A stretch of 63,862 nucleotides of DNA, filler included, from Folioceros fuciformis (GCA_049999805.1; 8 parts of 8 records of this genome joined end to end with filler, not necessarily neighbours in it), one strand, 5' to 3'; counted from the whole stretch's first letter, positions 4,078 through 54,424 are shown. A program made the numbers and translations. Notes: generated from the sequence alone by a model not told the origin.

Positions 4078-4078
4078 C

Positions 4079-8468: not shown

Positions 8469-8480
8469 GCTCTGATACCA
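8469..8480 (-). promoter_or_regulatory. Primer binding site (tRNA-iMet)
   Basis: TGGTATCAGAGC directly after the 5' LTR. Confidence 0.95.
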
Positions 8481-13272: not shown

Positions 13273-14277
13273 CCTGGTACACGAGTGCGGGCACCGACTG
13301 CGGAGCAAGTCGCAAGGAGAAGGGACCAAGGAGAGGCCCTAGGACAAGGACGTAGAACTGGTCAGGGCAGTGTATGGATGGAGCCAGGAAGAGGCCGGAG
13401 GACTCGTGATTGAGTCCTTGTGGAAGCGCAGCACCACAGCGGGATAGGGTTCTGTTCAAGTCTGGGATAGGAAGGGAGGCCAATGGCTGGTTGGCACGAG
13501 AGATGGTGACTGCTCAACGCATGGGCCTAGCCAGGTGGCTTCTGTGTTTTTGGTAGCATAGGAAGCAGGGCTACCTATTAGACCACATGCTACTGTTCCT
13601 GCATGAAGTCGTCAAGGGGGGCAGGATTGACTAGGGGAAGATTATTTTTGATCAACTGAATGAGGAGAGGCAAAACCTGACTTCTCCCACCCCCCGTCCG
13701 TCTCTGATTTCACCCTTCCTGGTTCATTTGTATTCTTATGCTAACAATCTGCAAGAGCGAGAGGTTGTGGCTTCCTTGCATATGTGGAAGCCTGTTAGGG
13801 AGGTCAAGTGGAAGTTGAAAGAGCCCAAGGAGGAGGCAGAGTCGAGCAGCTAGGAGTCCGGGGCGACGGGAAGCTCAAAAGAGAAGGTATCGATCAGTAG
13901 GAAGCGGAAGGCAGGAGCCGGGCAGAAGACCCCTGCGAAGAGGAGGAAAGTGACCGTGCACGTCACCAGGTCAGCAGTGGATTTGGAGCTGCAAGAGTCT
14001 GCCCGGAAAACAGGGATCAGGCAGCCGAACTTAAGGAATCAATGCCAACTGAGGAGGCAAAACCGGCTGAGGGGGCAGGGAAGTTAGGGCTGACTCCAGG
14101 GGAAGAACTCTTTCTAGGGTGGGAAGAGATCTTCAAGGCCACCCCCTTGGTGGCGAATTTACAAGTGGAGGACTTGGCAAGGGTATACACCTGTTGGGGA
14201 GGGGGAACTTGGACAAAGGGATGGGTATTGGAGGTGCACCCCAACAGGTGGATTTGCTAGGCCTGACAGCGGCCATG

Positions 14278-17200
14278 TGTGGAGTGGAACTTGCACCCAA
14301 GAACCACCAAGGGCCACACCTCCCCCTTGTTATCGTCATAGTACTAGGATTCGCTCCCAAGGGAGTGAACCCGTGTCAAGGTTTTCTACAACTTTCCCCA
14401 CTCTGCCCTAATCTGATCCTAACTATCAACCGGCCCCTAGACCTAACCACACTACAGCAAAAAGATCATAACCTCGTCTTCAATACCAACTACCACCCCA
14501 GCTGAACGAGGGCTCAGCATCATCTTCAGCTCCCACTCCTAGCTTCGGGTATTAGCCGCCTCAACAGCTGAGAGGAGGTTCCAGCCTTGGCCTCAACCTC
14601 CACTCTCAGCCCTAAGTGCCAGTGACCTAAGAAGCTGATTGAGATCTTCAGCACCTAAGCTCCCCACCCCAGCACAACGGCTCTCTACTCCAGCACTCCA
14701 ACACTTCAGTCCTTCACCACCACGTCTCACCCCTGGATTTCAAACACAACAGCCCTTCACTTGCAGCCCTTGAGGCAGGAATGTGCAGACCCAGGCTAGA
14801 TGGCCCCCTCGGCCCACAGCCCTGCAGTCCATCGCTTTGGAAACCCCTTAGGGACGTCAAGCTATCCCAACCACCCAACCAGCATGCAAGGGAGATCAGC
14901 CCCTGCGGATTTGGCCACCCAGATCTCGATGATTTCGGGAGCCGCCACGTTCCCCTAGTGGCATGGGGAATCAAGACCGAGGCACATCTGCACACTGGGT
15001 TAAAACTCTAACCCAGCAGCCTGCACACAAGGTCAAGGGAGCTCTCACCAAAAAAAAAACCCCCTCCCTCAATGACAGGCCTGGCCTCTTATACCCCCTT
15101 GGCCAGGAACCCTGTCATTTCCTAACCAGGTCCACACGCCTCCGACAGAACCTCCCACTCGTCAAAACCCTAAACCTAACTCCGACCTAATCCTAACCCA
15201 AACTTAGTTGCCCATTACCCCCTTGCTGGTTACCCTCTACCAAAAATCACCAACCTCTCACAACTACCAAAAATCATCCGTGCTTCTCCACACCCTCCTC
15301 TCCTCCCTTGGATCAAATCATCCCTTTCCCTCAGACCCCCTTCGCCTTCAGGTCCCTCCCTCCATTCTATTGGCCAAGACCCCTGACCCGGGAAAACTAC
15401 CCCTCTAGTGCCCCTGAATGAGCACCTTGTAGGCTCGGCACCGGAAGCGACAACCCACCATCTCTGCTAACATAACCATCATTGGGCTTCCCACCCACTA
15501 GGAGCACGCCTGTACTAAGGGCTTTCCACCTTCAAACAACCAGGTGTGCTGCTTGCGGATGGCAAGCCGAATGCCACTTATGTCCTCTGGTTGGGGTTCG
15601 TCTGCACTCATTCTCCTGGCAGCCCACTTGGCGATTTTGAGTTTATCAAAGCAACAACACTCTTGCCTGGAACCATCGTCTAGTAGTAGATGAGGCATAC
15701 CCTCTCCACCATCTTTCCTCTTTCTGCGAGGGCACCTGGAACTCCTCCCAGCCGCTCAGCCAAACACTTCCACCACTGCTCATTCTCTAGACCCAGAAAG
15801 TACTCCTGCACTGCACGTTGCCCAAAGCCATAGTTGAAGACGCTCCTCTCCGATTGCACACGTCGCTACCATGGTTTGTATTCTTCCTTGGGCACCAGCC
15901 CCCGCTTAGCACTGCCCAATTCAGCACCCCTCCACAGTGCCATCGGAGCCTGCCTTTGGACCTGGCCATCCCCGAGCGCTTGTGCCTACCTAAATCCGCC
16001 TGCAACCACCCCTGCTAGCGGATCAACCCAGCCCCCCTGCCTGCTCGGCCGACCTCCTGCTTTCCGGAATCCGTTAGCCTCCAGCCTGCTCGCCAGGTCG
16101 ACCAGCGCCTGGATATGCTAGCCCGGTCTCCAGCAATCATCTCCTCGTAACAGACTCCCTTGTTAACCAGCCGGGCCGTCCTGGAAGGCTGAACTCGGCA
16201 CTGCCCTAGGGGCCTCTAGATGCATCCAGCCAACCAGCCCCAGGTGCTCTGCCCCCATATAAGGTAGCCATCCTGCTACATCCCGATCTACCTCTGTAGC
16301 TGGCTAGCAGCCGCTTAGCCTGAACCTCACTTGCCAGCCAGCATTGCAAGCACAGCCTGGATCAACTCGAGGCTTGCTTGGCCGACTTGGGTCATCCCAA
16401 CTGCCTACTTGGACTCCTGCAGCTGGGCATGTCTAGATTTTGCTCTGCCTGACCACCTTCAGCTGCAGCCAGGTCGGCCCTAGCCCAATCCGCCTTTCCT
16501 GCCCAGGCTCAACCATCCTGGATCCACGTGCAGCTGGTCCTAGCTACTTGCTTGCAGCTGAGTTTCTGCGCTGCTGGGGCCCCCACCCACCCTCAGTAGC
16601 CCAGCTGCTCGCCAGCCCTTGCAAGCCGCCTGCCTACCACCTGCTTCCGGATCGGGCTAGCTGGCCACACAACACCCTCCTAGCCGCTTAGCCCAGGCCG
16701 CCTGTCCACCACGATCCAGGCCAGCCTGCCTAGATCCCGCCATCCTGCACTGCCAACCCCTGCTCGGGATCCTGCAGCCAGGCCACCGCCCGGCTTCCAA
16801 ATTCGGCCCCGACCTGCCATGCCCAGAGTGTCCTGCCAGCCTGGATCTGGCCAAGCCTAGCTCACCATGCCAGGCCTGCCGATCGATCCTGCCCTCCTCC
16901 TGGATTTGGCAGCCTTGCCTGGTTGTCTGGCCGGGGCTGGGCTGCCTGCTCCTTACGAGCTCCTGCTGGGCAGCCCAGATTTAGCCATCTGCAGCCGCTG
17001 CAACCCCTGTCTGGCCCAGCCTCGACCAGCCGACAGGCCCTGCTAGCCGACAGCTGCTAGCCCGGCCATCCTCCAGGCCGCATGCCGGCCAGCCTGGCCT
17101 CCTAGATTTGGCCAGGCAGCCAGCCCACAGGCTCACCTGCTGTCTGCTTGTAGCCGGGGCGGGCTGGGCTGCTGGCTAGACCCCTCAGCTGCCACCTCCA

Positions 17201-18585
17201 GCCAGTAGACCCCCCTTGCCAGATCTCAACCACCAGCCTGCCTGCAGCTAGATCATGTCGAGGCCCGCCTGGCCTAGATCCGTCAGCCTCTATCTATTTG
17301 CCTGCTTTGCTAGGTCGCCTACCTGCGCCTAGCCGATCTGCTGCTGCAGCCAGCCCCTGCTAGGTCAATCCCCCCCCCAGCCGTCAGGGGGCAGCTTGGC
17401 TGCATGGTGGTCCGGCTAGGCGCCCACCTGCTGGCTGCCTGCTCACTCTCGCTGCCTGCCATTCCAGTTGGTTTCGTCTCCTGCAGCCTACTACTTCAGT
17501 CCCAATCAGCCCACCCCTCTGACTGGCCAGGATTCGCCCCCACCCTACTGCTGCTTGGCCGCGGCCCAACCACCTGGCCAAACCCAATCCAGGCCAGCCT
17601 ACAATACGATCTAGGCCAGCTCGCCATGGGTGCCAACCCAGGCTGGGCTGCTGCTAGGCCCTCCAGCAGCAGTTGCCGACGACCTGGGCAACCAGCCTCC
17701 ACCGGACCGCTTGCCTCCAACTCTGACCAGCCCAGCCGCCCAGCCAGGCTGCCCTTTCTCCGCTTAGCTGGGCTAGGTCCATTCCTATTGCCTGCTGCCT
17801 GGCTGGCTTGCTAACCTCCAAATCCAGCCCCAGCTACCTGCAAGCCGACGACTGCCTGGCATAAACAACTGGCTGGGCCGCTACCTGGCTTCGGGATCCC
17901 CCGGCCAGCCTGCTGGTTTTGTCTGCCGGCCAGCAGGTCTACCACTCGGCTGCTGCTGGCCCGGCCGACCCGCCGCCGTCTCGGGCTGGCTGCTTCCTGC
18001 CCAGCCAGCCCTTGTCTAGCCCCTCCTAGACCAGCCAGCCCGTCTGCTAGCAGGCTGGCTAGATTCGGCAGCCTTGCCACCACAACCTAGCTTGCTTGGA
18101 GCCGCCCTACGGTCACCCGGCCTGTTGAATCTTGCCTGGGCTTGCAGCCACTGCTCCGTCCGCCCGTCAGATCCATCCTAGCAGCGGGCCGGCCCGCCTT
18201 TCGGCCAGATCCTCAGCCCCAGCCACCTGGCCTAAGGCCAGAGCAGGCCTAGGCACCCTACCTCCCTACCTATGCCCAACCGCCTTCTGCACGCTCCCGA
18301 GGCCCTAGCTCACCCTCACACGCCCGACTTAGGGTCCCACGCACGCTAGCGTCCCTCTCCACGGGCACACCCTACCCCCTACTTCACATTTTCCACGGCC
18401 ACGGGTTAGCTAGACGATTGTTGTCTTTCTCAACTGCACCACCACTATCTCATGATCATCCTATTTAATCTAGCCTTATCTAACATAGTTTCCTAATTAC
18501 CTCTACAAGGAATTCTATCAAAGCTCCAAAAAAAAACAAATACCACCCATTTTCTAAGAGGCCTATCTCCCATGTGGTCTCCACA
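14278..18585 (-). mobile_element. 4308-bp insertion, probable solo LTR
   Basis: Termini TGTGGAG...CTCCACA (7-bp inverted repeat). 5-bp TSD CCATG at 14273-14277 and 18586-18590. The host reading frame resumes across it. No gag/pol and no terminal direct repeats seen. Strand inferred from a TATAAG + GA-rich tract near 15090 on the minus strand. Confidence 0.9.
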
Positions 18586-20047
18586 CCATGGTCTAGGCGT
18601 AGGTGGATATGCTAGATCAAGCTGCACGAGCACTCACTTGGCTGAGCATGTAGGGACAGAAAGCAGAGGAGGCGCAAGCCAAGCTGTCTAAGGCGGAAGC
18701 AAGACGGGAGCAATCGGAGGAAGCCTGACAGGCCCTGAGTGCAGCAAAGGCGCAGGCGCAAGAGGAAGTACGCCGGACTCGAGAAAAAATGTAGGCAATG
18801 AAAGATTAGCATGAGTTGCTTATGACTCAAGTCAAAGAGGTCCATGAGGCCAACCAGGAAATGCAACAGGAGCTATTGAGAGCACAGGAGCAAGAGGCAG
18901 CTGTAGTGGAGAAAGTCCAAAAGCTTGCGGGCAGTTACAAAGGAGAACGAGATGAGGCCTGGATCTAAGTAAAAGGGAAAGGGAAGGTCAAATGGAGCAG
19001 CAGGTTCGCGACCGAGGTAGTAGAAGCCGCTACCGGTTAGAGGGAGACCACGCCGGTAGAGGAAAGCCCCACCAGGGTTGAGGAAGTAGCAACAATCGCG
19101 GAACCCGCAGCCGGGAGAGTTGGAATGACAACCCGCCCTAGGAGGACGGGGCTGGGAACGACGGCCGCCAGAGGAACAGAGGATCCCCCAGTACCCTTGG
19201 AGAGCAGAAGACAGACAATTCGGGGTAGCTCACGGGAGGAGGGGGTAAGCACCTCATCTGCAGTAGGAGGCCAGATTGTATTACAACATCTGGATGAGGA
19301 ATCTTATATTCGTGGCCTCTATGTGAATGGGGACCATGTACTTAATCTTACTGTCCATGTGCGTGTGGAAATAAGAGGGACAAGGGCTTACTGCTTGCAA
19401 CTGAGGACCCGCTAGGGATGCTTCTCCCATTGCTTCCGGGTGTGGGGGCTGCCTCCTTGTTACTTAGAGGCAATCCAGGAGAAACTCACAGAAGAAGAAG
19501 CGCAGGCCTAGGTGGAGCAAGGACCTGTGACGGTCCTCAGCAACATGCGATCGGAAGGTGGGGGAAGGACCCCCCGGCGAACCCCACCCATGCCTCAACA
19601 AGAGAAGTTAAGCCACAGCGAGAGTGAGGTGGAGGTTTTATGTGAGGATCTGCCTGACCAGTGAAGAGGGAGGAGAGCCCAGGGATTCGGCGGCAAAGGA
19701 AGGAGTACGCGGAGGCCTTATAGAAGGCGACCGCGGTGATAGGATAGGCCAGAATTCATTGCATCTTAGAATAATATTTAGTTAAGATTTGGTGAAGATG
19801 CTTTCTTGGACCTGATGCTGCTCGCAATTAAGAGCGCTTGATTGCTTAAGACTGGACTTAATGGCGGCTACAACCCCGCTTGGCGTGTTGTACAAAGGGG
19901 CCTGTTGAGCCTCAAGAATTAGCAAATGTTGGAGACTCTTCCCGGTTGAGATCCTCGCGATGTCCATGGCTGGAGTGGAGATGTCTGGGTGGGCAATGTG
20001 TGCACGACGCTCCTGGGGTGGTTGAGAGCTTTTGCTCCACAACTAGT

Positions 20048-20520
20048 GGTGAGGGGGACGAATCAACAAATTCCCTGCTAAGTGGAAAGTCACCTTCCCT
20101 TATTCCATGAATCACTAGTTGTGTTCTGCGGTGAGTCGTGAGGGACGAATCCGCCAAATGTGAGGGGCGGAAGGAGAACTTCTCTTTCCCTTATTCCCTG
20201 AACTGCTGACTGTGGTCCGTAGCTGAGGTGAAGAGGACGAATTTGCCAGTTGCGCAAAGTGGAAGGAGAACTTCTCTTTCCCTTATTCCCTGAACTGTTG
20301 GCTGCGTTTCGAATCTAGTGTTGAAGAGTGTGTGTGAGAAGATGAGGCGTTGAAGTGAGTATGAAGGAGTGAGTGAAGAATGAGTGTGTAAGAAGAAGAA
20401 GGTTGGAGGAGTGAGTCTGTGAGAAGAAGACTAATTGTGGTCCGTAGCTAAGGAGAGGGGGACGAATCCACCCGCTACGCGGAGTAGAAGGGGAACTTCT
20501 CCTTCCCTTATTCCTTGAAC
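20048..20520. repeat. ~4 diverged copies of a ~70-90-bp unit
   Basis: Recurring GAGGGGACGAAT......AAGTGGAAGGAGAACTTCTCTTTCCCTTATTCCCTGAAC near 20048, 20136, 20225 and 20452. Confidence 0.8.
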
Positions 20521-21347
20521 CATTGGCCGCCTTTCGAATCTGGTGTAGGAGTGAGTGAGTTGAGGGACCGAGGAGGACCCTGGAAGATTGCTGAGATGGC
20601 TGGAGATTGAAGAGAATGGCTGAGAAATTGCTAGGTGATTGAGAAAGATTACTGAAGCTTGGATGTGATTTCAGAAAGGATTTTGAGAGATTTCGGGACG
20701 TTTATGGAAGACTGTTGAAGATTGTTGGAGACTGAGGGAGATTGTGGAGGATTGCTGAGGGATTGCTGGAGATTTGTGGACATTGCTGGAGGATTGAAGA
20801 CCCTTGGGGATGAGCCTGTGAGGAATAAGTGTATACTAGAGTTCTGGTTTGTTTTGCATGTGTGGAGAGTGTTGCGTGTGTGTGTGGGGGAGTGTAGCTG
20901 ATCCGCGGGGTTCTTGTTCCCCAAGGATTAGCACTTGCATGTGTGAGGAGCATCCAATAAGACCAGATCTGTGAGCTTGGAAGCCCTTGGGACAGAAACC
21001 TGTTGTGGGAACCCGCGGCGGCGCATGCGCCGGAAAATAATAGTTAGGGTTTTGGGTGGGACTCACCACGATTGTGGAGACCACTACCAGTCACGGACCT
21101 AGTGACCGTGGTCATAGAGTAGGGACCAGAGTCGTAGAGTAGGGTCCACGGTAGCTAGGCTAACCGGGGGTAGTGGTAGGGAGCTAGGGGTACTGGATAG
21201 GACCTGACCTAGGTAAGAGTTAGTAGTAGAAGAAACCTATGTTACTTGGCACAAATCATTCCCTTGGGAGCGAATCCCATGGCTACAACGACATAGAGGG
21301 TTTGTGTGGGCCTTGTGGTGTCCCCGGACACAGCATTTAACTCCACA

Positions 21348-25739: not shown

Positions 25740-26215
25740 TGTTTGGGATGGATTCCGGATGTTAAGTTCTCGATAGCTAGGGAATGTAGGTTTCTTCCAT
25801 ACATGGAGCGTCCATATATTTGTATACAAGGATTTCACTTGGAGCTGACTTTTTTTCATTAGGGGAAACAAGTTTGTGTTGTTGATGTGGTTGTTACAAA
25901 TCCCACTAGAGATTTGATTTGCGTAGACATCATATCAACCCCCTGGATGGACGGCGGAGGGTTGTGCAATCACCAAAGTCCATAAGTATTCTCCCTATAA
26001 GACATGCATATTTTTATCCAGGCTCTTAAGGCCCATAGGGCCATGGCAAGGACTTTTCAAGGTTCATCAAGGACTGTAGTCACAGGAATTGGATTCTTTA
26101 TCTCTTGTTTGCGCTGGTCTTCTTTCGACAACATGTATCCATTGCTTTGCAAAGCGCATTTGCCAATAAGGTTCTTACAACAACAAGCGTATGTCAAGCG
26201 GCTTCTGCAGCACTA
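25740..26215 (+). mobile_element. Degenerate 3' fragment of a non-LTR retrotransposon with restriction-like endonuclease (CRE-like)
   Basis: Across frameshifts: IPDVKFSIAREC.F..ME, (R)AD, VVDVVVTNPTR, K.HKY, VSIALQ, in the motif order of the RLE domain. Confidence 0.55.
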
Positions 26216-26767
26216 GTGGTAGGTAGGTGTTTGGTCACAACATTTTGGGAGCAGTAGGTAGTTTTTGACAATAATGTTTGAAGGGACTAGTACATGTTGC
26301 ACAATGGCCACGTAGCTACATGCTGGCTAGTCTAACCCATAGGAATACTCAATTGTAGCAAGCAAAAATCAGTCTTCAGCCGTCGGCTAGAAAAACTACA
26401 AAGTTTCTTGGCCTATGGCCAAGGAACAAGGCAAAGGAAGGAATTAGTAGCCTCCAAGCTGCGAACAGGTGAAATCAAGTTGGTTGCCTAAAGCCCCCAC
26501 TTGACAATGTGGTTCAAAAAGGTCACAAGAGAGAAACAAGATAAGCTGCAGAGACGAAGTATGGCTGCCTTTCTATTCAAACAAACATCTACTATCCAAG
26601 AATCCATGGTCAGGTAGCCACACATATAGGCCAAACCCCTAGGAACTTTCGATGAAACGCCTCCTCGTACCCAATGGTAGGCATTTTAGGTCTATTTATA
26701 ATCTTACTTCTCCTTGGCTTTAACGAAAGTGGACGCCCTAACTAGCCTGTTTCCCGGCGTCAAGTAG

Positions 26768-27722
26768 TGTTTAGGTCATAACGTGAATATATATATATAA
26801 ACGAATGGTACTCTATCGAACCGATAACCGTCAACCGGCGTACCGATTCACGAGACACAGCCTTATAGGCCTCACACACACATACACATGTATCTTTAAT
26901 CTAAGCTTCTTCCTCTACACTGTGTGCTACCGATCCTACGCTATGGTATCAGAGCCACGCTATGGACTCTGCCAAGCCTCCATCGCGTGTGTGTAAAATC
27001 TGCAAGTCCGAGTGCTGCATCAAAAATCTGGCTCACGAGCACTTTAGAGCTGTGATAGCATCACTCAGGATCTCACTCACCCGATTTGGAAGTTTGGCAG
27101 GCGCATTCTTGGCGGACGCCGTCAATCACTACTACTCGTAGTGCAAATGCGCTCTCTGCTAAGAATTCGAATTAGTCCTGATGGATCCCCACACTCAATT
27201 GAGTAGGCTGCAGTTTCTTGCACGTATCACGCGTCCTGATCTGTCTTTTGCTCTGCACAGAGCAATTCAACACAATCAGTTAAATGCGTCACCTACCCAG
27301 AGTGCAATTAATCCACAGGGGTCCAAGTCTGTAGTCACGGCAGAAAAGAAGTTAGATCAGTAGCACCAGGTCATCTGTGCATATATCCCAGTGTCCTTGC
27401 ACACACTTGGATACAGGTGTAGATACCCTGGAGCCACTGCATACACAGCAGGTGATCCTTGATCGGTTTGCCGAGGAACGCCATCACACGCACGCAACAT
27501 TGTGGGACTTCAGGCGAATGCGTGAAGTTCAAGTGGAGCACCTTCGCAGCAAGATTGATGGTATTAACTACAGATGTAAACATCTGTCAAAGGACCTGAA
27601 CACACTCTTCACACAGGTCGCGCACCTGGACAGAGTATCGAAGCCACAAGATACAAAGGCAGTACCTGCTGAACTAGAAAGATCCACCTTCATCAATCTT
27701 CAGCAAATCTTGCCAAACTTCT
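26768..27722 (+). mobile_element. 5' part of a copia-type element: ~176-bp LTR (26768-26943), PBS 26944-26955, atypical leader
   Basis: Exact TGGTATCAGAGC at 26944; upstream segment TG...TA with a TATATA tract. The LTR start is approximate. Confidence 0.75.
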
Positions 27723-27822: not shown

Positions 27823-28435
27823 TTCACTTCCGGCTTCCACTCCTTCTGGCGTCCTTTCACATTCGCCCTTACTCATTACTCGGTCACTCGCTTCTCCCCT
27901 TTCTCGCACACGCGCACCCTCGCGCTTCCTCTTTCTCCAGTTCTGTCGTCTTCTTTCTCAGCAATGCCCCTCCTGGGCTCCTATGAACGTTGAGGAATGG
28001 TGAGGTACCGGAGCTAAGGGAAGAGGAATCCCTTCCACTCCGAACTCGTGGATTCGGCTCCGTCACCCACACCAACCACGTGACCGCTTCGAGGATAGCA
28101 GGGGAGCTTCTCTCCCACTTGGCGAGGCGCCTCCTCCTGATTCGTCCCCGGACCTGATCACGGAGCGCCTACCACCTACACCCGCACCCCAGGTTGCTAC
28201 GTGCGCTCGCTTGCCTGGACCTCCCGTCCAGCAACGGCCATCGCTAGGTCCCTGCAGGGTCGACTGTCCGGCTGGTTCTTGCTCATTTCTTAGGCCTTCA
28301 AACTGGCCTCTTGTACACGGTGATGTCGGTTTTTCCGCCATAAAGTCTGTCAGGCAGGGGAGGTGTGCTCTTAGATTCTGAGCGACTTGGGTCCAAAAAA
28401 AGCACACTAAAAAAACCTAATCTAGCCTGCATTTA

Positions 28436-31059
28436 CTATCGCCCTGTCCCACGCCGCTGGCGGCTTCCTCCTGGCCTTCGCACGTCACCCCTCGCTGCTC
28501 CTCCTCTCCCTCTTCTGCCTCTCCGTTGGTCCGGCAGATCCTCCCAGAGGATCTCCACATCACTGCTACTACTGCTGGGCCTGGTTGGCGGCGTAGGTGG
28601 TTCCCGCCGCTGTGGTCCACCACCCCTCCTCCTTCTCTGGTTGCTGAGGACAGCCACAGGCCCTCGTTCTACCCAGGGCTAGGCCTCCTCTTCCGTCAGT
28701 TGCTCTAGAATTGCCTCCGCATAGCAGTGGGGCAGCCTTGTCACCTACCATATGTAGTGGTAGAGTCCCACGCGCGTCCTCAGTTGTAGGACGTAGCCCC
28801 GCGTCCCTCCTGTGCCCATACGTACACACAGAAACAGCTTCAGAACTCTGGCCCCTTCTACATACAGGCCTGGCACATAGGAGGCCTCCTCCTCATATTG
28901 CAGCACAATCCGACCTTCTGTCATAACAGAGGTGCTTATCCGTCCTCCCTTGGGCTACCTCGGGTTGCCTGCTCCCCCTCCTGCTGGGGTACCTGAAGGT
29001 TCTCTGCCTGCCCAGCTGTTGCCTCCTCCGGCTCTGTTCTCCTGGTACGGGTCACCCTCCTAGAGCGCCTAGGGGCAGGCGCCCCTACTGCTGCCTCCTT
29101 CTTCTCCAGGGTTGGTTCTTCAGCTATCTTGGGCCTCGTTGGGCCACCGGTAGCCCCGTCGGCTACCCGACTATTGGTAGTCCCGTGGACTACCGGAATA
29201 CCGGTAGCCTCCTCGACTACCGTTCCCCTGGTTCGGCTACCGGTAGTCTCGTGGACTACCGGACTACCGGTAGCCTCCTTGACTACCGTTCCCCTGGTTC
29301 GGCTACCGGTAGCCCCTTCTGCTACTAGGGTCGTCGACTGACTCGGGCGCCCAGCCTTGCTCTTCCCCTTCACTCTCTCTCTGGCCTCATCCCGCTCTCG
29401 CTTGTATTTGTCAGCTAACTTCTGGGCCTGCTCCACAGCGGCTATCTCCATCTCCTGTGCCTTAGCCATTTCCTGTTGCAACTCCAGGTTAGCCTCGTGA
29501 GCCTCCCTCACTTGAGTAGCAGGGCCCCCTGTTGTTCCTTCAGCGCCTGCACTTCAGCCCTCGCCTCGCGCCTCTTCCTCGGCTTGAGCCTTCTCCCTGT
29601 CCAGGACCCGCTGCTTCTCCTCCAGGAGTTGCCGCGCTGTCTCCGACTCCGCCAGTTGCCTCCTTACTTCAACCTCTCGCTCACGAGCCTCCTCCTCCTC
29701 CTTTCCTCGAGTCTCGATTTCTCGATTCGCTTGTACACTTAACCAGGTCAGGGCCCTAGCAGCCTGATCCAAGAGGTCTGCTTGGGCTTGCACCATCGCA
29801 GCAGTCAGCCCGGGCAGGTCCACCTCCTGCACCCCTCCGGTGCCCATTCCTCTCGCCGTGATTTGTCTGCCCAAGAATTCTCGCAACTTGTCTAGGTCCC
29901 CCACCTGCAACCTGTCTCTCTAAGGCCTGCACCTGAAAATGTCCTCCCACCCTGAGAAACCCTCCTATGCTGAAACGCGCCCTAACTTATCCTCCTATCT
30001 GGAGGAAACTGTGTCCGCTGCCATCACCTAATCCTGTGGCCCCTCGGGTCTTGTCTCACCCTGACCTTGCTCCTCCAACCTTCGGTCCTCAATTCCCTGG
30101 ACATCTGGTTCTCGTCCTCCCTCCCGCTGGCCCTTCTGCTCCAGGGTTGCCCCCTCTTCCTCCTGATCAGCCCCCATGCTCACACTTTGTCCTCTGGCCC
30201 TTTTCCTCTTGACAAGAGTCTTCTTCTGTAGCACCATCCTCTTCCTGGGCTTGACTGGGGTTTCCTCCTACGAGCTATTCCCACTGTCAGCTTCCCAACT
30301 GCTGGAGGCAGCCCTTGCTGGCTCAGCGGGCTTCCACTTCACATCGCGAACTGGCTTCCACAGGTGCAGCGAGGCCAGCATTCCTAACTCAGTGACTAGG
30401 TTAGCGTAACTGTACACATGGATTAGGAACGGCGAAATCATAGAAGGTTCAGGATTGGGTCGGATCAGGTTTTGCCTCTCCTCATCCATCCGGACATATA
30501 AAATCCGCCCCCAGTCAATCCTGGTGCCCTTCACTACTTCATGCACAAACAGGAGCATCTGGTCCGACAGATAATCCTGTTTACGCACCCGGAAGAAGCT
30601 CAGGAACCACCTGGCTAATACCAACAACTGGGGACTTGCCATGTCGCGCACTAGCCACCCGTTCGCTTCCTTTTTCGTGCCTGCCTTGAGCAGCGTTTCC
30701 GCGGCTCTCGTCCCGCCATGCTTCTTCAGGGACTCCAGCACCAGTCCCCCTTCCCCCTGTTGGTCGCGCCCATAGACCTTCCTAATCAACTCTAGGTTCC
30801 ATTCCTGGGGTCTGCCTCTGATCCCCTCCTCGCGTACAGGCTCTATCAGCCTCAGGGCGCACTCCCTGACTAGCTGGGGTGCTGCATGGTTCCACTTCTG
30901 GGTCATAAAGCTCAGACCCCGCTCTGCCACCAACTTCCCTGCCCTGACCCTCTAGTGCTCCATATTGGGCCACAGGAGTAGGTCAATTCGGGGGACAGGA
31001 GGCCCCCCCTCCTGTCCAGAGGCTGCTGCTCCAAGGATCAGTTCAGGCCGCGCCCTCAT
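28436..31059 (-). pseudogene. ~870-codon element ORF: plant transposon protein (Transposase_32/Athila extra-ORF-like) domain + coiled coil + conserved C-terminal domain
   Basis: ORFs 30268-30933, 30028-30237, 29554-29910 and 28936-29511 lie in one frame starting at ATG 31059, separated by stops (mostly TAG). Motifs PQLVREC, IRG, LARWFL, GTRIDWGRIL, SPFLIHVY. Frameshift near 28936. A 66-bp duplication lies near 29180-29315. Confidence 0.7.
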
Positions 31060-31201
31060 CCTACTTGTCCTCCTCCTCTCACACCCTGCGCCGTCTCTCC
31101 CGTCGTCCTGGCGCTTTCTCCTCTTTCAGCCGCTTCACGCTTCAAGTTACTCCCGCTCCCCGGACTTTTGGATGCTGGACAGAGCTCCCCTTTCTCTAGG
31201 G

Positions 31202-31209
31202 TTTTTATA
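31202..31209 (-). promoter_or_regulatory. Putative TATA box of the element ORF
   Basis: TATAAAAA ~140 bp upstream of ATG 31059, followed by a GA-rich tract; TATATAA at the equivalent place in the 52633 copy. Confidence 0.5.
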
Positions 31210-31457
31210 CCCTGCCTGCTTTCTCCCCTTACGCCCGTCGGGCTACCTCCAGTCGTTCCTCCGGTAACGGTTGCCCTGCCGGCTACCGTTGCCCCGTCAC
31301 CTTCGGCCCTTACTTTTGCCTACCTTAATGTTCTCAATGACCCGAGGGCAAGGAGGCACTTGCTGCTTCCCCCTCCTTGTCTCGATCTCCCGTACTCCCC
31401 AAACCCCGAAGCCCAAGGTGGACTTTGGGTGTAAACACCCCGGTCTTACTCGCTTAC

Positions 31458-31557: not shown

Positions 31558-34500
31558 CCTGCAGCGATCACCGCTGAACTGAGAGAGCTCTGGGAGGGTT
31601 GGATCGGGGGGTTTGGGTTTGCTGTATCGTGCATTTCGTGTCACCTTCAGCGATCACCCCTGAACTGAGAGATGCCCGTGAAAAAGTGAAATCGCGAATG
31701 ATATGAAATGAACAGTCGGGTGAAATAGAGGCGTCAAGGTTTCGGAGCTGTTTTTTCTTGGACCATGTAGGATGTCCGTTGTGGGATTTTCCTTTGAACA
31801 ACAATCTATTCGTCTCATGCGCCACAGCGGCCATGTGTGGTGTGTTAAGAAAGAATTCTGACACCTCTCCTCTGTCCTCTGTGGTATGCCATATGTTCCT
31901 CGGTTCCCTGTTGCCCATCTCTTTCCTTCTCGATGTCTTCATCTCAGTTGATAGAAAACCCTTAGGAGGATACTCCTGTAGACCTGTAGTAAAAAAGCCG
32001 AAGACCGCTGTTTGGTGGTGTGGTGGAGATCGAAATACTGTAGTAAATCAAGCGCATCAGTTCCAGACACGGCGTCGGATGACATGTCTTCTGACGTTAC
32101 GGAACACGGCCTCTCCCATGCCTGCGACTCCCTTATTTGGAATGCTTGGCATGTTGCTTTGCTATCACTACAGGGTGACACTGTACGGAACCGCCGTGCT
32201 GTCACGTACGAGAGGTGATGGTGAGGGATAGGTGAGGGGCTGGCGGGTGAGGTGACTGTTGCTTGTCGGCTGTGTTGGAAGGGTGGGGATTATTCCTGTA
32301 GCGGATTTTTTGTTTGCCACCTTGTCAGTAGCAAAGGATAGCATTTGGATTAAGGATGCCGCAACTGGTGGCAATTTTTGCAAAGCAAAATGAGCAAGAA
32401 GGCAGACGGGAGGTCAGAGCCGGTGTGGTTCTCGTCTTCGAGAGAGTAGAGATCGTTGAACCAGATTAGAATGCTTTGATGCTGCCTCAGGTTTTGCTAG
32501 GATGAGACTCTCAATTTGGGGTCAGGGTTTGTGTCTGCTGCGTTGACTGTAATGTCCCAGGCTCCCGGGGAGGAGTGTTGTTCCAATTTTATTTCCGGGT
32601 GCTGCGGAGCTTGGAGAATGCTGCTCTGATTGTTTACAACTTTCTCAGTTGAAGAGTGTGAGTACTAGCTGTGGTTGAGGTGGGAGCAGCACTTGCGGAT
32701 GACATCAAATGTGCCTCAACAATCTCTGCAGAGTGGTGTTTCCCGTCATCTTTTATATCTTGGCAACAACAGTCCTCAGTGACAGTACTGCCTACACAGG
32801 AGGTGGCAGCAGCAAGTGCAGAAGAAAGCAGGAATATGAAGAGCTTGGTGGCGATTTTCATACGTCGTACATCAGATTTGACGAAGACTCTCATGGTGTT
32901 TAATGGTCAGTCCCGAGCCTGGAGAAATTGAACGAGTTTTGTCGAATATCACTTGGCTCCAAGTGGTAGAGCCAAACGTTGAATACTAGGAAGATTACGA
33001 AATGGACTAAGAAGATGACCGTTAGGAGAGTTGACCTTATTGTCGAGGGGCTTGTCTCTGCTGATAAAATGCTTTTCGTGATGATGGATGGTGGGCATGG
33101 GGGACTTACCTGCTTGAGTCGCATGCATCTCAGATCTTCCATCGTGTGTGGACTTCTTCGTCACATGGTGAGTCATCAGTTGAGGAGGCAGCCATATGAA
33201 GCAGAGACATGACAAGGATTCCGTGTCTGGCCCATGGCCAAACCACAGAGACTCCTCCTCCAGACGAATCTGGGGTCACGAGGGAGGGAGGAAGAAATGC
33301 TTGTCCATGTGGAGGTACAACTGACTGTCTACCCTTTCCATGGATTACTTAGCTTTCGTCGCTATATCAAGCCTCTTTGTTGTCGACGCATTTCAGAAGT
33401 AGTTTGTTGTCAACACATTTCAGATGTAGTCTGTTGTCCAGGTGTCATCTTAATCCACCCTGCTCTGATGGTTGAAGTTGTCATCATACTCAGTCCTCCC
33501 AACGTCCTCAACTCTTGCCCTCACTCCTCTATACCAACTGAAACACGATGGTCCTGGTGTGAAGCAGCCAAAGAAACGCACGGGCAGATGAAGCTGGTGG
33601 AAACCTTGCAAAATGACACTAAGGCTCTGCCGGATCTAGCAGATGTACTTGCCTCTCTCCCCTGGCCTCCATGCTTGAGCAAAGTAGTTTTCCTTTAGGC
33701 TCAGCACCAAGCAGGGTGACGCATTGTCTGCAGTTATCATCTGTGACCCTCTAATGGCAGAAACTGTTGTAACAAGGGGCGTTGGCTTCCACGACGTGTA
33801 GCAGGAAGCACAGGTGAAGCGTCCACCCCCCGATTGACAGGCCCCCATCGATTACCATGCAAAAAAACGATGTGTGTCAGGTTCCATATTTACTGTACCC
33901 AGTAGGGCATGGAGGCAGCACACTTGGGCAGACGTAGCGGCAGTCAAGGACTGCAAAATCTTTTTGTTAACGGGCTGCAGGCATTTTCATTTATGATGTT
34001 GTAACGTGCCTCAAGTCTGCAGCTACGCTGCGCTGCGGCCCAGCCCAGCTTTTGACACGCCTTGCCTTCGTGTGCAGCTGGAAAGATGGAAAGAAGGCTC
34101 CGTGCGTTTGGTGCAGGGATGGCAGGAGTGTGTAGGGCAACTGGATAGTACTGATGAGGAACGACCTCCGCCGCTTGTGACTTGTGATGCGGAGCAAAGC
34201 CGTGGTTGGAACCAGTCCAAGACCAGTGGGCTGCAAGTGTTTCTTTCGCGTGCATGTGTTTCGTACTGCGCAAGTCCAGATCACCCGGGGAGGAGAGATT
34301 TATAAACCTACATACACAACTCGACGACGAGTTGTCAGATGTGGGGACGATGTCTCGGCCGATTGCGCTGTGGGGTTTGACTGCCCGCACTAACGGCTCT
34401 CTCGCTGTAACAACGTCAGTGGTAACGTTGAATATGCAGTGCGTACTGTTAACAGTCACTGATGAGAGAAGCTGCTAGGCGGCCCGCAAAACCAGCTGCA

Positions 34501-36252: not shown

Positions 36253-36576
36253 GTAATCAGAGGGCATGCAACAAAGCATGGGTCAAGTTAGAACCGAGCA
36301 ACAGGGGACTGCTCTGTGCTTTGTCTGATGTGGGTTTAACATGACTCACATCTTGTATTGTTTTGTGTCCAGGGTAGGTGGCGAAATGTTCCACACAAAC
36401 GGAGAGGTCCGGAGAGGTGGAACAAGCTTTTTCTCTCCCTATTCAGAAGATTGACTGGCATCAGGAAGGGCAAAGAGGCCCAACCTCAGGTATGTGCTCG
36501 CTAGTGTTTGCTGCTCACTGCAGATGGTTGATTCATTGATCTATTTGTTGCTTGCTGATCAGATCATGTCTTGCAG

Positions 36577-52632: not shown

Positions 52633-54424
52633 TGTGGAAGACCACATGTGCAAGACCCTCCCTTGGGCTGTTGGTTTGAATGATTTTTTTGTTATTCTTA
52701 CGTTTTATGTGATGGAGTGTTTAGGAACTGCCCAAGGCAAGGGCCTTTTATAATAAAAGTTGTCCTTGGCCTATGGTAGTACCACTTCTTGGATTTTTTT
52801 TTTCCTTTCTTTTACAAATAACTAGTCTTTGGATCTTTAACTATGATTGTTAGGCCAGGATAGAAGGTCTTTGGACCTTGGGGTTTTAAGAATAAAAATT
52901 TTCTATATAAGGAGAGGGGTCCTTCATTCACCAATGGTTGTGCGGGGTAGTGGAGAGGTGGCCCATTCCACAACAGTAGGTGAATGTGGAACGTATAGAC
53001 ATAGGCCAGGTGGAAATAGCAACCCTAGTTGTGGAGTCTGGACAGACAATGAGTAGAGGAACACTAACAATGGCATAGCACGATTGGAGGAAGACCACTA
53101 CCTAGCATCGTGATTCTATGTGATTCCAAGGCAAGTGGAGATTCAGCAACTGGGTGTGACCGCTATGGCAGCTGGCAGGAGTAGGCATGTGCTGCCATGT
53201 TGGAGAAGTTCAGGAAGCTGGCGGAGAGGTATAAGTGGGAGAGGCATCAGGCTAGGGTCAAGAAAGAGATAGGTAGGTTGAAGAGGGGCAAGGGTTAGCT
53301 ACCGAGGTGGCTGAAAGAGCCATCGTCGTGGAACCATCCACTATAGTAGTGGAGTCGGCCAACGTCGCGGAAGAAGAAATCAAAGTAGTGGAATTAGCCA
53401 CAGGCGGGAGCGCAGTAGAAGGAGGTACAACCCCCTTGGAATTTAGGAGACAGCCATCGCAGGACTGTTAATGGGGGGAGAGGGTAAGGACCTCTTTAGC
53501 AAAAGGGCGTATTGTGTTGCAACATGGGGATGAAGGTGCTCATGTTCCTAGTTTCTACCTGCATGGTGAGAGGGTGCTTACTCTATTGTATGTGGTGGTT
53601 GGGACAGGAGGGGCAGAGATTACTGGTTGCACATCCTAACAACCATTCGTTGTTATCAGTGGTTCCTTCGAATAGGAGATGGGGCATATGCTTCACAGAT
53701 GGTGTTGAAGGAAATGACTGAAGAGGAGGTCAGAACATGGTTGGAGAAGCAAACAATATGGCTGCTCAGTGATGAAAACGAGAGAACTCTCGTAGAGGAC
53801 GCAGGTAGATGGCATCTCCTAGGAGGAATGAAGAGACATTGGATAGTGGAAGTAAGGTGGACGTATTATGGGAAGATCTTCTAGATCAGCAGTGTGGTAG
53901 GAGGGTGTGAACCTCCAAAGTTTGGGGTAGTAGTTTGTTTTGGTTGAAAAAGGGTTAATAGTGGTATGGTTTGGTTTTCTTTTTCTACTTCTTTCTCCTA
54001 ATTTTTCTTTATTTTTTGGTCATTTTTCCTATTTTTCTTTGTGCTAATTAGGTTAATTGACAAGAAAAAAGTTAGTTTGGTTATTAAAGTGAGTATAGGT
54101 CTGGTCCCAGACCTGGGAAAGTTTAGGTCCGGTACCGGGCCATAGGGTTGGGAAAGTTTGAGTCTAGGTCTGGTGATTAGTTTAATATTCATTAAAGATA
54201 TATAATATTAAATGATTAAATAATAATAGAATAATATACAATAATTAAATAATAAAATGGTCTGAACATAGGAACAGGAATATGTGGGGTATGTCAGTGT
54301 CAGGGTCTAATGTCAGGCTGGCTGATTGCTTGGCTGGCCTGAACGGTCATGGAGGCCGTGTCCTAGCTAGGGCTAGAGGCAAGGGTTGCGACCACCCCCA
54401 TACCCCTCCCCCTTTCTCCCTTCC
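52633..54424 (+). mobile_element. TGTGGAG/CTCCACA-family element, 5' terminus plus internally deleted ORF remnant
   Basis: Starts TGTGGAAGACCACATG (compare TGTGGAGACCACATG at 18585 and 55592, minus strand). TATATAA at 52904. Remnants KLAERYK.ER and GRIVLQHGDEGAHVP..Y..G..VL and EMTEEE match the 28436-31059 protein. Confidence 0.7.

What the first reader, a model, noticed from the sequence alone, without database searches (positions are those of the whole stretch)
27823..31457. A ~870-codon ORF with its own TATA box seems to lie inside the LTR-like unit
Seen, by tiling three copies: at 52633 the family 5' terminus (TGTGGAAGACCACATG) is followed within ~300 bp by TATATAA and the ORF remnant. 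Contig 27823-31457 has a similar CCTTGGGCT..GGTTTG motif near 31410, TATA at 31202-31209 and the whole ORF. The copy at 13273-21347 continues from the ORF end through ~1.6 kb to the 3' terminus CTCCACA. No PBS, gag or pol lies between, and the tiled length is ~4.7 kb, close to the 4.3-kb solo unit. The N-terminal domain resembles the Transposase_32/Athila extra-ORF domain. Established: extra ORFs of Athila/Tat elements normally sit in the internal region, while an ORF within the LTR is known from MMTV (sag in U3). Inference: an LTR-encoded accessory gene that would survive in solo LTRs, or a new integrase-mobilised single-gene element.
Basis: partly seen in the sequence, partly recalled or inferred. 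Interest (0 to 1): 0.72.

Follow-up and report, generated by a model that had tools for sequence, protein, structure and literature searches.

The report
Decayed accessory gene in LTR-like repeat
This is a dead copy of a very abundant land-plant repeat that carries one protein gene, related to the helper proteins of Athila and VANDAL transposons, between LTR-type ends with no gag or pol, so the gene may ride inside the LTR itself, but this window cannot prove that.

Summary
The "~870-codon ORF" is not open. Read from ATG 31059 on the minus strand it has 7 in-frame stops, a one-base frame break at 28938/9, and 2 more stops in the C-terminal part.

It is a real gene of a high-copy family. In public DNA runs, other copies read C at two of the stops and carry the base missing at the frame break. 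Between contig 3 and the contig-1 copy, synonymous sites are saturated (pS ~0.76) while pN is 0.26-0.41.

The protein has four parts:
- an N-terminal domain with a sub-threshold Transposase_32 match, whose predicted fold is nearest VANC21 (weak, Z 5.8);
- a basic stretch;
- a coiled coil;
- a conserved C-terminal domain.

No gag, pol, PBS or PPT was found in any copy. A related ORF-less 4308-bp unit (14278-18585) has the same end sequences and a 5-bp target duplication, so units of this kind insert whole.

Whether the ORF-bearing unit is itself an LTR stays open. I put that at about 0.4. An internal ORF with a separate short LTR, for example 21073-21347, is about equally likely.

The parts
27823..31457 (-). 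Contig 3: one decayed copy of the ORF-bearing repeat unit. It is cut by contig ends near the presumed 5' end and about 0.95 kb short of the 3' end.
   Evidence: homology to the contig-1 copy, nhmmer E 4.7e-84 and 4.6e-67
31401..31446 (-). Weak match to the 5'-terminal region of the copy at 52633 (AAGACC ... CCTTGGGCT ... GGTTTG)
   Evidence: score 22; 44 of 2000 shuffles reach it
31203..31209 (-). TATAAAA, the only TATAWAW on this strand of the contig. It lies 144 nt upstream of ATG 31059 and 240 nt upstream of ATG 30963.
   Evidence: This is a consensus match only; no transcript start was shown.
28936..31059 (-). Main reading frame from the first in-frame ATG. The frame is kept, but there are 7 internal stops: TAG at 30952-4, 30268-70, 30028-30, 29995-7, 29965-7 and 29920-2, and TGA at 29554-6.
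   Evidence: Other copies read C (CAG) at 30270 and 29997.
30271..30951 (-). N-terminal domain, 227 aa and open: a distant Transposase_32/Athila-type domain, mostly helical
30193..30252 (-). Basic stretch KPRKRMVLQKKTLVKRKRAR. It looks like a nuclear localisation signal, judged by eye only.
   Evidence: The consensus is recalled, not tested.
29380..29919 (-). Charged heptad-rich segment (coiled-coil type)
   Evidence: There are only weak coiled-coil Pfam hits; relatives have similar tails.
29140..29340 (-). Short tandem peptide repeats (ATGSRTRGTVV.EATGSPVVH type)
   Evidence: length variants at this place among other copies (joints)
28938..28939 (-). One-base frame break private to this copy. 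Most other copies carry one more base here, and the contig-1 copy reads straight through.
   Evidence: (depth with the extra base: 1220.7 of 1457.7, 1934.3 of 2188.1, 22.2 of 22.2)
28511..28933 (-). Conserved C-terminal domain in the shifted frame, with 2 TAG stops. It ends with the conserved DVEILWEDLPDQ.
   Evidence: (dN/dS 0.24 against contig 1); no Pfam family
28385..28440 (-). T-rich patch just after the coding region. An AT-rich patch lies at the same relative place in contig 1 (19745-19800). It may be a transcript-end signal.
   Evidence: inference only
28003..28154 (-). Two copies of a ~70-nt repeat (GGGGACGAATCC ... GGAAGG..CTTCCCTTA, with an internal palindrome). Contig 1 has four copies (20047-20523).
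   Evidence: E 5e-10 to 5e-21
13273..21347 (+). Contig-1 copy of the unit. It is 5'-truncated, split by the 4308-bp unit, and its 3' end CTCCACA (21341-21347) abuts a Copia RT.
14278..18585 (-). ORF-less 4308-bp unit in inverse orientation. It runs from 5' TGTGGAGACCACATG to CTCCACA 3'. The target duplication CCATG lies at 14273-7 and 18586-90. A second copy lies at 54525-55592.
21073..21084 (+). Exact copy of the first 12 nt of the 4308-bp unit, 275 nt before the 3' end of the contig-1 copy
   Evidence: About 0.008 exact matches are expected in the window (my arithmetic).
52633..54424 (+). Deleted, more distant copy: the 5' end, TATATAA at 52904, then only the C-terminal third of the gene. 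It is cut by the contig end.
45648..46751 (+). Third 3' end of the same kind: a conserved ~55-nt block plus CTCCACA at 46745-46751. It sits exactly where the homology to the contig-1 Copia starts (46752).

Best explanation
Contig 3 is a dead copy of a very abundant repeat of a land-plant genome. The repeat is a compact unit of about 4.6 kb with LTR-type ends (TGTGGA(A)GACCAC ... CTCCACA) and no gag, pol, PBS or PPT.

Most of the unit is one gene of about 810-870 codons. A TATA box lies 144-240 nt upstream of the gene and a T-rich patch lies just after it.

The protein is a transposon accessory protein with these parts:
- an Athila/Transposase_32-type N domain, whose predicted fold is nearest the DNA-binding anti-silencing protein VANC21;
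- a basic stretch;
- a long coiled coil;
- short tandem repeats;
- a conserved C-terminal domain.

My committed reading is that the unit is an LTR and that the gene cassette sits in its U3 part. One way to get there is an upstream shift of the plus-strand priming site. That shift would turn a former 3' accessory-ORF region plus the old short LTR into one long LTR. The old LTR start would then survive as the 12-mer at 21073.

By analogy with VANC, the protein would oligomerise through its coiled coil. It would bind the repeated ~70-nt motifs downstream of its own gene and protect family members from silencing.

Shown: the gene, its decay, its past selection, the ends, and the whole-unit insertion of the ORF-less relative. 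Inferred: the LTR status of the ORF-bearing unit, the promoter, and the function.
For: THE GENE IS REAL
- Between contig 3 and the contig-1 copy, pS is 0.63-0.81 (at saturation) and pN is 0.26-0.41. dN/dS is 0.24 for the C-terminal domain.
- All contigs of three DNA runs covering places 30270 and 29997 read C where this copy has the T of a TAG.
- Most contigs carry the base missing at 28938.
- The contig-1 copy has both parts in one frame.

HIGH COPY NUMBER
- 1173 contig pieces were laid in X1 and 1416 in X2, the same sample. 71 were laid in X3, a second study.
- All 30 bins are covered in each of the three.

PROTEIN FAMILY
- PF20167 at E 1.1e-4 over 2-168 of 177 profile positions.
- 12 relatives at E<=1e-3 among 1.84 billion representatives, best 5.4e-8. 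All 6 that carry an organism name are from the liverworts Riccia (4) and Marchantia (1) or are an unnamed JGI record. The long ones have acidic or coiled-coil tails.
- VIA-align: VANC21 (9lnk_A) at Z 5.8, rmsd 4.6, 179 residues aligned. It is the only chain of 48,161 with Z>=5; the next has Z 3.9.

THE UNIT
- No gag or pol.
- The 4308-bp unit has CCATG on both sides. Removing it restores the reading of the contig-1 gene against contig 3.
- Its last 173 nt match the last 173 nt of the contig-1 copy: score 70 against a null of 33.6 +/- 3.3, max 43.
- Its first 15 nt match 52633 with one extra base.
- Three independent 3' ends abut unrelated DNA.

AGAINST SHORT LTRs
- No 5' region resembles a 3' end. 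5 of 6 comparisons are at shuffle level. The sixth was not reproduced.
- A profile of the conserved 3' block finds nothing in the first 530 nt of the 52633 copy or in the 5' 500 nt of contig 3.
- The 5' 500 nt of contig 3 hold only one CA..TGG site.
- The 12 nt before 21073 are not purine-rich.
- The 4308-bp unit has no terminal direct repeat.
Against: - No copy with both ends and the full gene is in view, and no target duplication is seen for an ORF-bearing copy.
- No pair of units around an internal region is seen, and no PBS after CTCCACA or PPT before TGTGGA. All 6 ends seen abut unrelated DNA, which fits solo LTRs and complete small elements equally well.
- The 5' end is tied to the gene only through a distant copy that lacks two thirds of the gene.
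- The match at the end of contig 3 is weak.
- The exact 12-mer at 21073 is what a separate 275-nt LTR would show.
- The only documented position of a Transposase_32 ORF is internal, downstream of pol in a sunflower Athila (PMC11728184, passages read).
- The VANC21 match is below the Z at which the tool says helical folds can agree by chance. No DUF1985 or PMD hit appears at E<=10, and a sequence profile does not find VANC21.
- The contig comes from a short-contig assembly of a repeat and could be a blend of copies.
Confidence: 0.4

Rival explanations
1. The gene is an ordinary internal accessory ORF. The true LTR is short and separate: it starts at TGTGGAGACCAC (21073 in contig 1) and ends at CTCCACA (21347). 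The element is then one of two things. It may be a full Athila/Tat-like retrotransposon with gag-pol upstream of the ORF. Or it may be a non-autonomous derivative, LTR-ORF-LTR. On this reading the 52633 copy is a 5' LTR joined to the ORF tail by a deletion, and the 4308-bp unit is a solo LTR that grew by about 4 kb.
For: - The first 12 nt of the 4308-bp unit recur exactly at 21073, 275 nt from the 3' end and on the same strand. About 0.008 such matches are expected in the window (my arithmetic).
- Transposase_32 is reported in a 3' extra ORF of a sunflower Athila (PMC11728184, passages). Extra ORFs of Retand, Grande and RIRE2 also lie between pol and the 3' LTR (PMC11963269 and PMC7264820, passages).
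- Deletion variants are common in the family. One contig joins 31303 to 29316.
- Contig 3 ends 400 nt upstream of the first in-frame ATG, so what lies further upstream is unseen.
Against: - The 12 nt before 21073 are not purine-rich.
- The conserved 3' block, shared by three distant units, is absent from the first 530 nt after 52633 and from the 5' 500 nt of contig 3.
- 5' regions and 3' ends are not alike.
- No PBS-like site was found.
- No Ty3/gypsy gag or pol lies anywhere in the 64-kb window, although it holds three gene copies and three further ends.
- The fuzzy search for the 5'-end 15-mer (<=3 errors) listed nothing inside the 4308-bp unit except its own 5' end, and nothing in the third unit (45648-46751).
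- An LTR length of 275 against 4308 nt in close kin needs a further event.
Confidence: 0.38
2. This is a stand-alone mobile unit that is not an LTR: a single-gene element with 7-bp inverted ends (TGTGGAG/CTCCACA) and 5-bp target duplication. The ORF-less 4308-bp unit is its non-autonomous partner and shares only the ends, as in class II families.
For: - The two unit types share only about 15 nt at the 5' end and 173 nt at the 3' end. This is the usual pattern for autonomous and non-autonomous DNA transposons.
- PMD- and DUF1985-type proteins also occur in MULE and VANDAL elements (bioRxiv 10.1101/2024.09.27.615353 and PMC5735166, passages).
Against: - No catalytic domain was found in the protein.
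- The N domain model is all-helical.
- TG...CA ends with a 5-bp duplication are the hallmark of LTR integrase (established knowledge, recalled).
- No mechanism is known that would copy an LTR-less unit through an integrase.
Confidence: 0.07
3. The contig is a blended assembly of many repeat copies, so its stops, frame break and ends belong to no real copy. The tiling of three contigs joins parts of different elements.
For: - The window is made of short contigs glued with linkers.
- The family has over a thousand laid pieces. Only 131 of 1173 (X1) and 151 of 1416 (X2) are 99% or more alike.
- Many loose ends lie in the 5' 400 nt.
Against: - The contig-1 copy is colinear with contig 3 from about residue 71 of the frame from 31059 to 500 nt past the gene.
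- The stops are the transitions expected of decay: 238 of 309 differing places in X1 are transitions.
- The gene anatomy does not depend on the tiling.
Confidence: 0.1

Closest known systems
Athila-lineage extra ORFs: sunflower Athila 14 ORF(+) with Transposase_32 (PF20167), and the Arabidopsis ATHILA 'Athila domain' protein (PF03078)
   Same: - The N domain is of the same kind, sub-threshold here. Atlas neighbours carry PF20167 and PF03078 at low scores.
- The architecture is the domain plus an extended coiled coil. Athila-domain proteins are modelled as coiled-coil pentamers (PMC13547354, passages).
- It is an accessory protein of a retroelement, not a catalytic one.
   Different: - In the sunflower paper the ORF lies downstream of pol in the internal region (PMC11728184, passages). 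Here no gag or pol is near any copy, and LTR-type ends lie about 0.4 kb upstream and 1.7 kb downstream of the gene.
- The host is a land plant without close annotated kin.
- The nearest proteins are liverwort hypotheticals at 22-29% identity.
VANC21 of VANDAL21 (Arabidopsis MULE): a sequence-specific anti-silencing protein with a DUF1985 domain
   Same: - It is the best structural match of the N domain.
- VANC also has a coiled coil (PMC13547354, passages) and variable regions with tandem repeats. It binds short motifs that form tandem repeats in non-coding parts of its own element (PMC5735166, passages).
- This unit has 4 and 2 copies of a ~70-nt repeat just downstream of the gene.
   Different: - There is no sequence-level match: no DUF1985 at E<=10, and VANC21 is not found by profile.
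- Z 5.8 is weak.
- VANC sits in a DNA transposon with a transposase gene.
- DNA binding and anti-silencing are untested here.
Antisense and sense extra ORFs of Tat/Retand/Grande/RIRE2 elements
   Same: - They are long accessory ORFs with coiled-coil (SMC-like) or Transposase_28 parts, and a long non-coding stretch runs towards the 3' LTR (PMC7264820 and PMC11963269, passages).
   Different: - Those lie between pol and the 3' LTR, and many are antisense.
- Here the orientation relative to any pol is unknown, because no pol is present.
MMTV sag (ORF in U3 of a retroviral LTR)
   Same: - It is the only well-known case recalled of a protein gene inside an LTR. It is an analogy for the committed reading.
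   Different: - It is an animal retrovirus with an unrelated protein, and the ORF overlaps U3 of a 1.3-kb LTR (recalled, not read here).
- No plant case turned up with the phrases searched (17 papers, 15 listed, none on a plant ORF in an LTR).
Large retrotransposon derivatives (LARD) and other non-autonomous LTR elements
   Same: - They are gag/pol-less, high-copy, and have TG...CA ends.
   Different: - LARDs have paired long LTRs around a non-coding core (recalled).
- Here no terminal direct repeats were found, and the unit carries a selected gene.

Membership tests
Pfam PF20167 Transposase_32 | Score at or above the curated cut-off (45 bits) | tested here: not met
   22.5 bits, E 1.1e-4. Only 2 of the 13 aligned family members hit it at all.
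Pfam PF20167 Transposase_32 | The match spans the whole domain model | tested here: met
   Profile positions 2-168 of 177 match residues 10-173.
LTR of an LTR retrotransposon (solo or paired) | 5' TG ... CA 3' ends with a short inverted repeat | tested here: met
   The ends are TGTGGAG...CTCCACA in the 4308-bp unit. For the ORF unit they hold only by tiling: the 5' end from 52633 and the 3' end from 21347.
LTR of an LTR retrotransposon (solo or paired) | 4-6 bp target-site duplication | tested here: inconclusive
   CCATG flanks the ORF-less unit. No ORF-bearing copy has both ends in view.
LTR of an LTR retrotransposon (solo or paired) | Occurs as a direct-repeat pair around PBS ... gag-pol ... 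PPT | not testable with these tools
   No genome is held. No Ty3/gypsy gag-pol is in the window. All 6 ends seen abut unrelated DNA.
Athila/Tat-type internal extra ORF | Lies between pol and a PPT plus 3' LTR | tested here: inconclusive
   No pol lies within the 400 nt of contig 3 upstream of the first in-frame ATG, or anywhere in the copies. No purine tract precedes 21073. Sequence further upstream is unseen.
Non-autonomous LTR element with short LTRs | The 5' and 3' terminal direct repeats are alike | tested here: not met
   5 of 6 comparisons of 5' regions with 3' ends are at shuffle level. The sixth (score 51 against max 48) was not reproduced. The 3'-block profile finds no 5' region. Caveat: the copies are old and diverged.
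Non-autonomous LTR element with short LTRs | A PBS (CA then TGG...) follows the 5' LTR | tested here: not met
   The 5' 500 nt of contig 3 hold one CA..TGG site, 38 nt from the contig end. No tRNA gene is in the window to compare with.
VANC / DUF1985 anti-silencing proteins | DUF1985 domain by sequence | tested here: not met
   No hit at E<=10 in any of the 13 members. The profile does not find VANC21 among solved chains.
VANC / DUF1985 anti-silencing proteins | Shared fold of the DNA-binding domain | tested here: inconclusive
   9lnk_A at Z 5.8, rmsd 4.6, 179 residues aligned; the next chain has Z 3.9. The model has pLDDT 71. Foldseek finds nothing at E<=1e-3.
VANC / DUF1985 anti-silencing proteins | Arrays of a repeated motif in non-coding DNA of its own element; binding and demethylation | tested here: inconclusive
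   Repeat arrays are present. Binding and effect are not testable here.

The most novel reading that the evidence does not exclude
A plant LTR carries a complete accessory gene with its own promoter: an Athila/VANC-like DNA-binding, coiled-coil factor. The gene was captured into U3 when plus-strand priming moved upstream of a former 3' extra ORF. Every LTR, including the solo LTRs left after the element is lost, would then be a potential source of a factor that acts in trans on the repeat arrays of the family.
Probability: 0.38. Interest if true: 0.8.

Novelty: new variant of a known kind. Interest (0 to 1): 0.55.

Why it matters
Extra ORFs of plant retrotransposons are common, but their function is almost unknown. 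In every case I read about, they sit in the internal region.

A selected accessory gene placed inside the LTR would be doubled in each element. It would also outlive the element in solo LTRs. That would change how such genes are found, because LTRs are normally masked as non-coding. It would also change how their dosage is counted.

Independently of position, this family extends the Athila/Transposase_32 type of protein to a non-seed-plant-like lineage. It also gives a weak structural link to VANC21. Together with the repeat arrays next to the gene, this makes a testable idea: retrotransposon extra ORFs of this type may be sequence-specific anti-silencing factors.

If the ordinary reading holds, the finding is a decayed copy of a non-autonomous or Athila-like element and is of local interest only.

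Tried and rejected
SEARCHES THAT FOUND NOTHING
- Word-indexed protein searches with the N domain found nothing at 'longer' or 'near' lengths.
Scans with one relative and with the window's domain found no relative.
- No whole genome is held, so copies could not be collected.
- No RNA holder was listed. The one run guessed to be RNA gave 1 record under 90% alike, on 28305-28574 only. Nothing can be said on expression.
- Foldseek against PDB gave no match at E<=1e-3. The sequence profile against solved chains gave nothing relevant.
- The C-terminal domain gave no Pfam family at E<=10 for 3 pieces.
- Earlier notes of this scan: none for this genome.
- The bacterial promoter and terminator scan is not meaningful for this eukaryotic DNA.

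LEADS OF MY OWN THAT FAILED
- A 'terminus plus TATA' at 12970-13110 next to the contig-1 copy is the end of a Copia LTR. The complement of a tRNA-Met-type PBS (consensus recalled) lies at 12958-12969, and Copia coding lies at 11697-10311.
- An alignment of nt 123-345 of the 4308-bp unit to 20955-21206 scored 51 against a shuffle max of 48. It did not appear among the top 6 when the whole unit was compared.
- Shared 11-mers and 8-mers (TTAGGGTTTTG) near 21044, 15173 and 46480 are at the number expected by chance: 35 shared 10-mers against about 20 in shuffles.
- An intron between 30268 and 29920 is not needed, because other copies read the stops as sense codons.


Full report
WHAT THE WINDOW IS

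The window is not one stretch of chromosome. Seven TTAATTAATTAA linkers inside N runs divide it into 8 contigs: 1-24705, 24806-27722, 27823-31457, 31558-45547, 45648-54424, 54525-57534, 57635-62275 and 62376-63862. The finding is the whole of contig 3.

The other contigs hold Ty1/copia elements, a MULE transposase piece, a metacaspase-like ORF and host-like genes. A 512-aa DUF6817/TPR gene has its best named relatives in Ginkgo (55%), Sphagnum (54%) and liverworts (about 50%). Its best hit of all is an unnamed protein at 72%. The host is therefore a land plant without close annotated kin. No whole genome is held.

THE OBSERVATION

The strings are there:
- TGTGGAAGACCACATG at 52633.
- TATATAA at 52904-52910.
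- TATAAAA at 31203-31209 on the minus strand, the only TATAWAW on that strand of contig 3.
- CCTTGGGCT..GGTTTG at 31401-31418.
- CTCCACA at 21341-21347.

The '~870-codon ORF' is the minus-strand frame from ATG 31059 to about 28437. It is not open. The longest open stretch is 227 aa. The frame has 7 internal stops, 6 TAG and 1 TGA. It then breaks by one base at 28938/9, and the C-terminal part has 2 more TAG.

THE GENE IS REAL AND THIS COPY IS DEAD

Three DNA runs from two studies were laid on the contig at 80% likeness or more. They gave 1173, 1416 and 71 contig pieces, and all 30 bins were covered in each. The family is therefore very abundant.
- At two of the TAG stops (places 30270 and 29997) every covering contig reads C, which gives CAG.
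- At 28938 most of the depth carries one more base: 1220.7 of 1457.7, 1934.3 of 2188.1 and 22.2 of 22.2. That base puts the C-terminal part in frame. Only the best-supported rows were printed, and 404 more were not shown, so the other stops are unchecked.
- The contig-1 copy reads straight from the main frame into the C-terminal domain and stops at TGA 19662-19664, just after ...EDLPDQ.
- 238 of the 309 places that differ in X1 are transitions, as expected for decay of methylated repeat DNA.
- Between contig 3 and the contig-1 copy, synonymous differences are at saturation (pS 0.63-0.81) and non-synonymous ones are at 0.26-0.41. dN/dS is 0.24 where it can be computed. One caveat: the alignments were guided by protein similarity, which lowers pN somewhat.

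The gene was kept by selection while the subfamilies diverged.

THE PROTEIN

Residues from 30951 to 30271 form a 227-aa domain. It hits PF20167 Transposase_32 across nearly the whole model, but below the cut-off: 22.5 against 45 bits, E 1.1e-4.

An exhaustive phmmer search of 1.84 billion representatives found 12 relatives at E<=1e-3. The best was 5.4e-8 and none was below 1e-10. Those with names are hypothetical proteins of Riccia sorocarpa and Marchantia polymorpha. The long ones have acidic linkers and coiled-coil tails like this one.

An AlphaFold2 model built on that alignment has pLDDT 71 and pTM 0.64 and is mostly helical. Foldseek found nothing. The exhaustive structural aligner put VANC21 bound to DNA (9lnk_A) first: Z 5.8, rmsd 4.6 Å, 179 residues. 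It was the only chain of 48,161 above Z 5, and the next had Z 3.9. By the tool's own notes that is a lead, not proof. No DUF1985 or PMD hit appears by sequence.

After the domain come four further parts:
- a basic stretch (30193-30252);
- a long charged heptad region;
- short tandem peptide repeats;
- a ~140-aa C-terminal domain with no Pfam family.

The literature I read in passages says the following:
- Transposase_32 occurs in a 3' extra ORF of a sunflower Athila and is related to ATHILA ORF1 (PMC11728184).
- Athila-domain proteins and VANC are both modelled as coiled-coil pentamers (PMC13547354).
- PMD-C resembles DUF1985 of VANC in structure, and PMD-A proteins are retrotransposon-encoded (bioRxiv 10.1101/2024.09.27.615353).
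- VANC21 binds a 9-nt motif that forms tandem repeats in non-coding parts of its own transposon and removes DNA methylation there (PMC5735166).

THE UNIT AND ITS ENDS

The window holds three copies of the gene.
- Contig 3 is the fullest.
- The contig-1 copy (13273-21347, + strand) is colinear with contig 3 from about residue 71 of the frame from 31059 to 500 nt past the gene (nhmmer E 4.7e-84 and 4.6e-67; non-coding tail E 1.5e-19). It is cut at 13272 by what looks like a Copia LTR. It is also split by a 4308-bp insert.
- The copy at 52633 is more distant. It has the 5' end, 530 nt that match nothing, then only the last third of the gene.

The insert (14278-18585, inverse orientation) starts TGTGGAGACCACATG and ends CTCCACA. 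It is flanked by CCATG on both sides. Its removal restores the reading ...VDLLGLTAAM|V.A.VDMLDQAARALTWLS against contig 3. It has a GC-rich core, no ORF of the family and no terminal direct repeats. A second copy, 93% alike, sits in other DNA at 54525-55592.

The insert shares sequence with the gene-bearing copies only at its ends:
- Its last 173 nt match the last 173 nt of the contig-1 copy (score 70 against a null of 33.6 +/- 3.3, max 43).
- Its first 15 nt match 52633 with one extra base.

A third 3' end of the same kind is at 46751: a conserved ~55-nt block with the hairpin TGGGA-GCGAA-TCCCA, then CTCCACA. It lies exactly where homology to the contig-1 Copia begins.

The end sequences are therefore real mobile-element ends, and units of this kind insert whole.

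LTR OR NOT

For the LTR reading:
- No gag or pol lies in any copy. No Ty3/gypsy pol lies anywhere in the window.
- The ORF-less unit cannot be an element with LTRs, so it is best read as a solo LTR of 4.3 kb.
- The 5' regions of contig 3 and of the 52633 copy do not resemble the 3' ends.
- Those 5' regions lack the 3' block that three distant units share.
- The 5' 500 nt of contig 3 hold only one CA..TGG site.
- There is no purine tract before 21073.

Against the LTR reading:
- The first 12 nt of the 4308-bp unit recur exactly at 21073, 275 nt from the end of the contig-1 copy. I expect about 0.008 such matches by chance in the window. This is just what a separate short LTR would show.
- No copy has both ends with the whole gene.
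- The match of contig 3's end to the 52633 end is weak (44 of 2000 shuffles and 139 of 4042 natural windows reach its score).
- The documented place of this kind of ORF is internal.

One model reconciles both sets of facts. If plus-strand priming moved upstream of a former 3' extra ORF, the ORF, its tail and the old short LTR would together become the new U3-R-U5. The old LTR start would be left as an internal relic. This is inference only.

My odds:
- LTR-borne gene: 0.4.
- Internal ORF with a separate short LTR, in a full or a non-autonomous element: 0.38.
- Stand-alone non-LTR unit: 0.07.
- Blended or mis-tiled assembly: 0.1.

HOW IT MOST LIKELY WORKS

The gene has a TATA box 144 nt before its first ATG. 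It has a T-rich patch just after the coding region, at the same relative place as an AT-rich patch in contig 1. It looks like a self-contained transcription unit, but nothing on transcription could be tested.

Downstream lie 2 (contig 3) and 4 (contig 1) copies of a ~70-nt repeat with an internal palindrome. Its core, GGGGACGAATCC, recurs in the conserved 3' block.

By analogy with VANC and the Athila-domain proteins, I propose a nuclear, oligomeric, DNA-binding accessory factor. It would recognise these repeats and shield family members from silencing. The anatomy is shown. Binding and effect are inferred.

VERDICT

The protein is a new distant member of a known kind of retrotransposon accessory protein. 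Its placement in a gag/pol-less unit with LTR ends is unusual and worth a genome-wide check.

Noticed in passing
window 24750, 27767, 31502, 45592, 54469, 57579, 62320: The window is a chain of 8 unplaced contigs joined by N runs around a TTAATTAATTAA six-frame stop linker. Neighbourhood across these points means nothing.
   Followed up: yes
window 14278-18585 and 54525-55592: A 4308-bp ORF-less unit with LTR-type ends and a CCATG duplication. About 2.5 kb of its core is 64% G+C, with degenerate GGCTGG/CAGCAGG-type repeats. The two copies are 93% alike.
   Followed up: partly
window 45648-46751: A third unit end of the same superfamily, inserted into a Copia. It holds three tandem copies of a ~41-nt unit at about 46010-46130.
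   Followed up: partly
window 20047-20523 and 28003-28154: A ~70-nt repeat with an internal palindrome (GGAAGGAGAAC/TTCTCTTTCC). It is conserved between two copies whose synonymous sites are saturated, so it is probably a cis element.
   Followed up: partly
window 3805-8731: A Ty1/copia element with 261-nt LTRs 93% alike (3805-4065, 8481-8731) and a 933-aa open gag-pol stretch (5139-7940).
   Followed up: partly
window 36559-39216 (+) and 35041-36291 (+): Open stretches of 885 and 416 aa with no Pfam family at E<=0.001. The longer has a Ser-rich middle and, by eye only, conserved ends like a plant host gene.
   Followed up: no
window 58867-60405 (-): A 512-aa uninterrupted DUF6817 + TPR gene. 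It matches relatives in one stretch over 83-96% of its length in the hits listed, so it has no intron there. The best hit is 72% identical and unnamed.
   Followed up: partly
window 55596-57534 (-): A CCHC zinc-knuckle ORF (weak zf-CCHC_4 hit, E 0.014) next to the second copy of the ORF-less unit. It is probably another element that served as the target.
   Followed up: partly
window 40296-41372 (-) and 42935-43858 (+): A caspase-domain (metacaspase-like) ORF and a MULE transposase fragment in contig 4.
   Followed up: no
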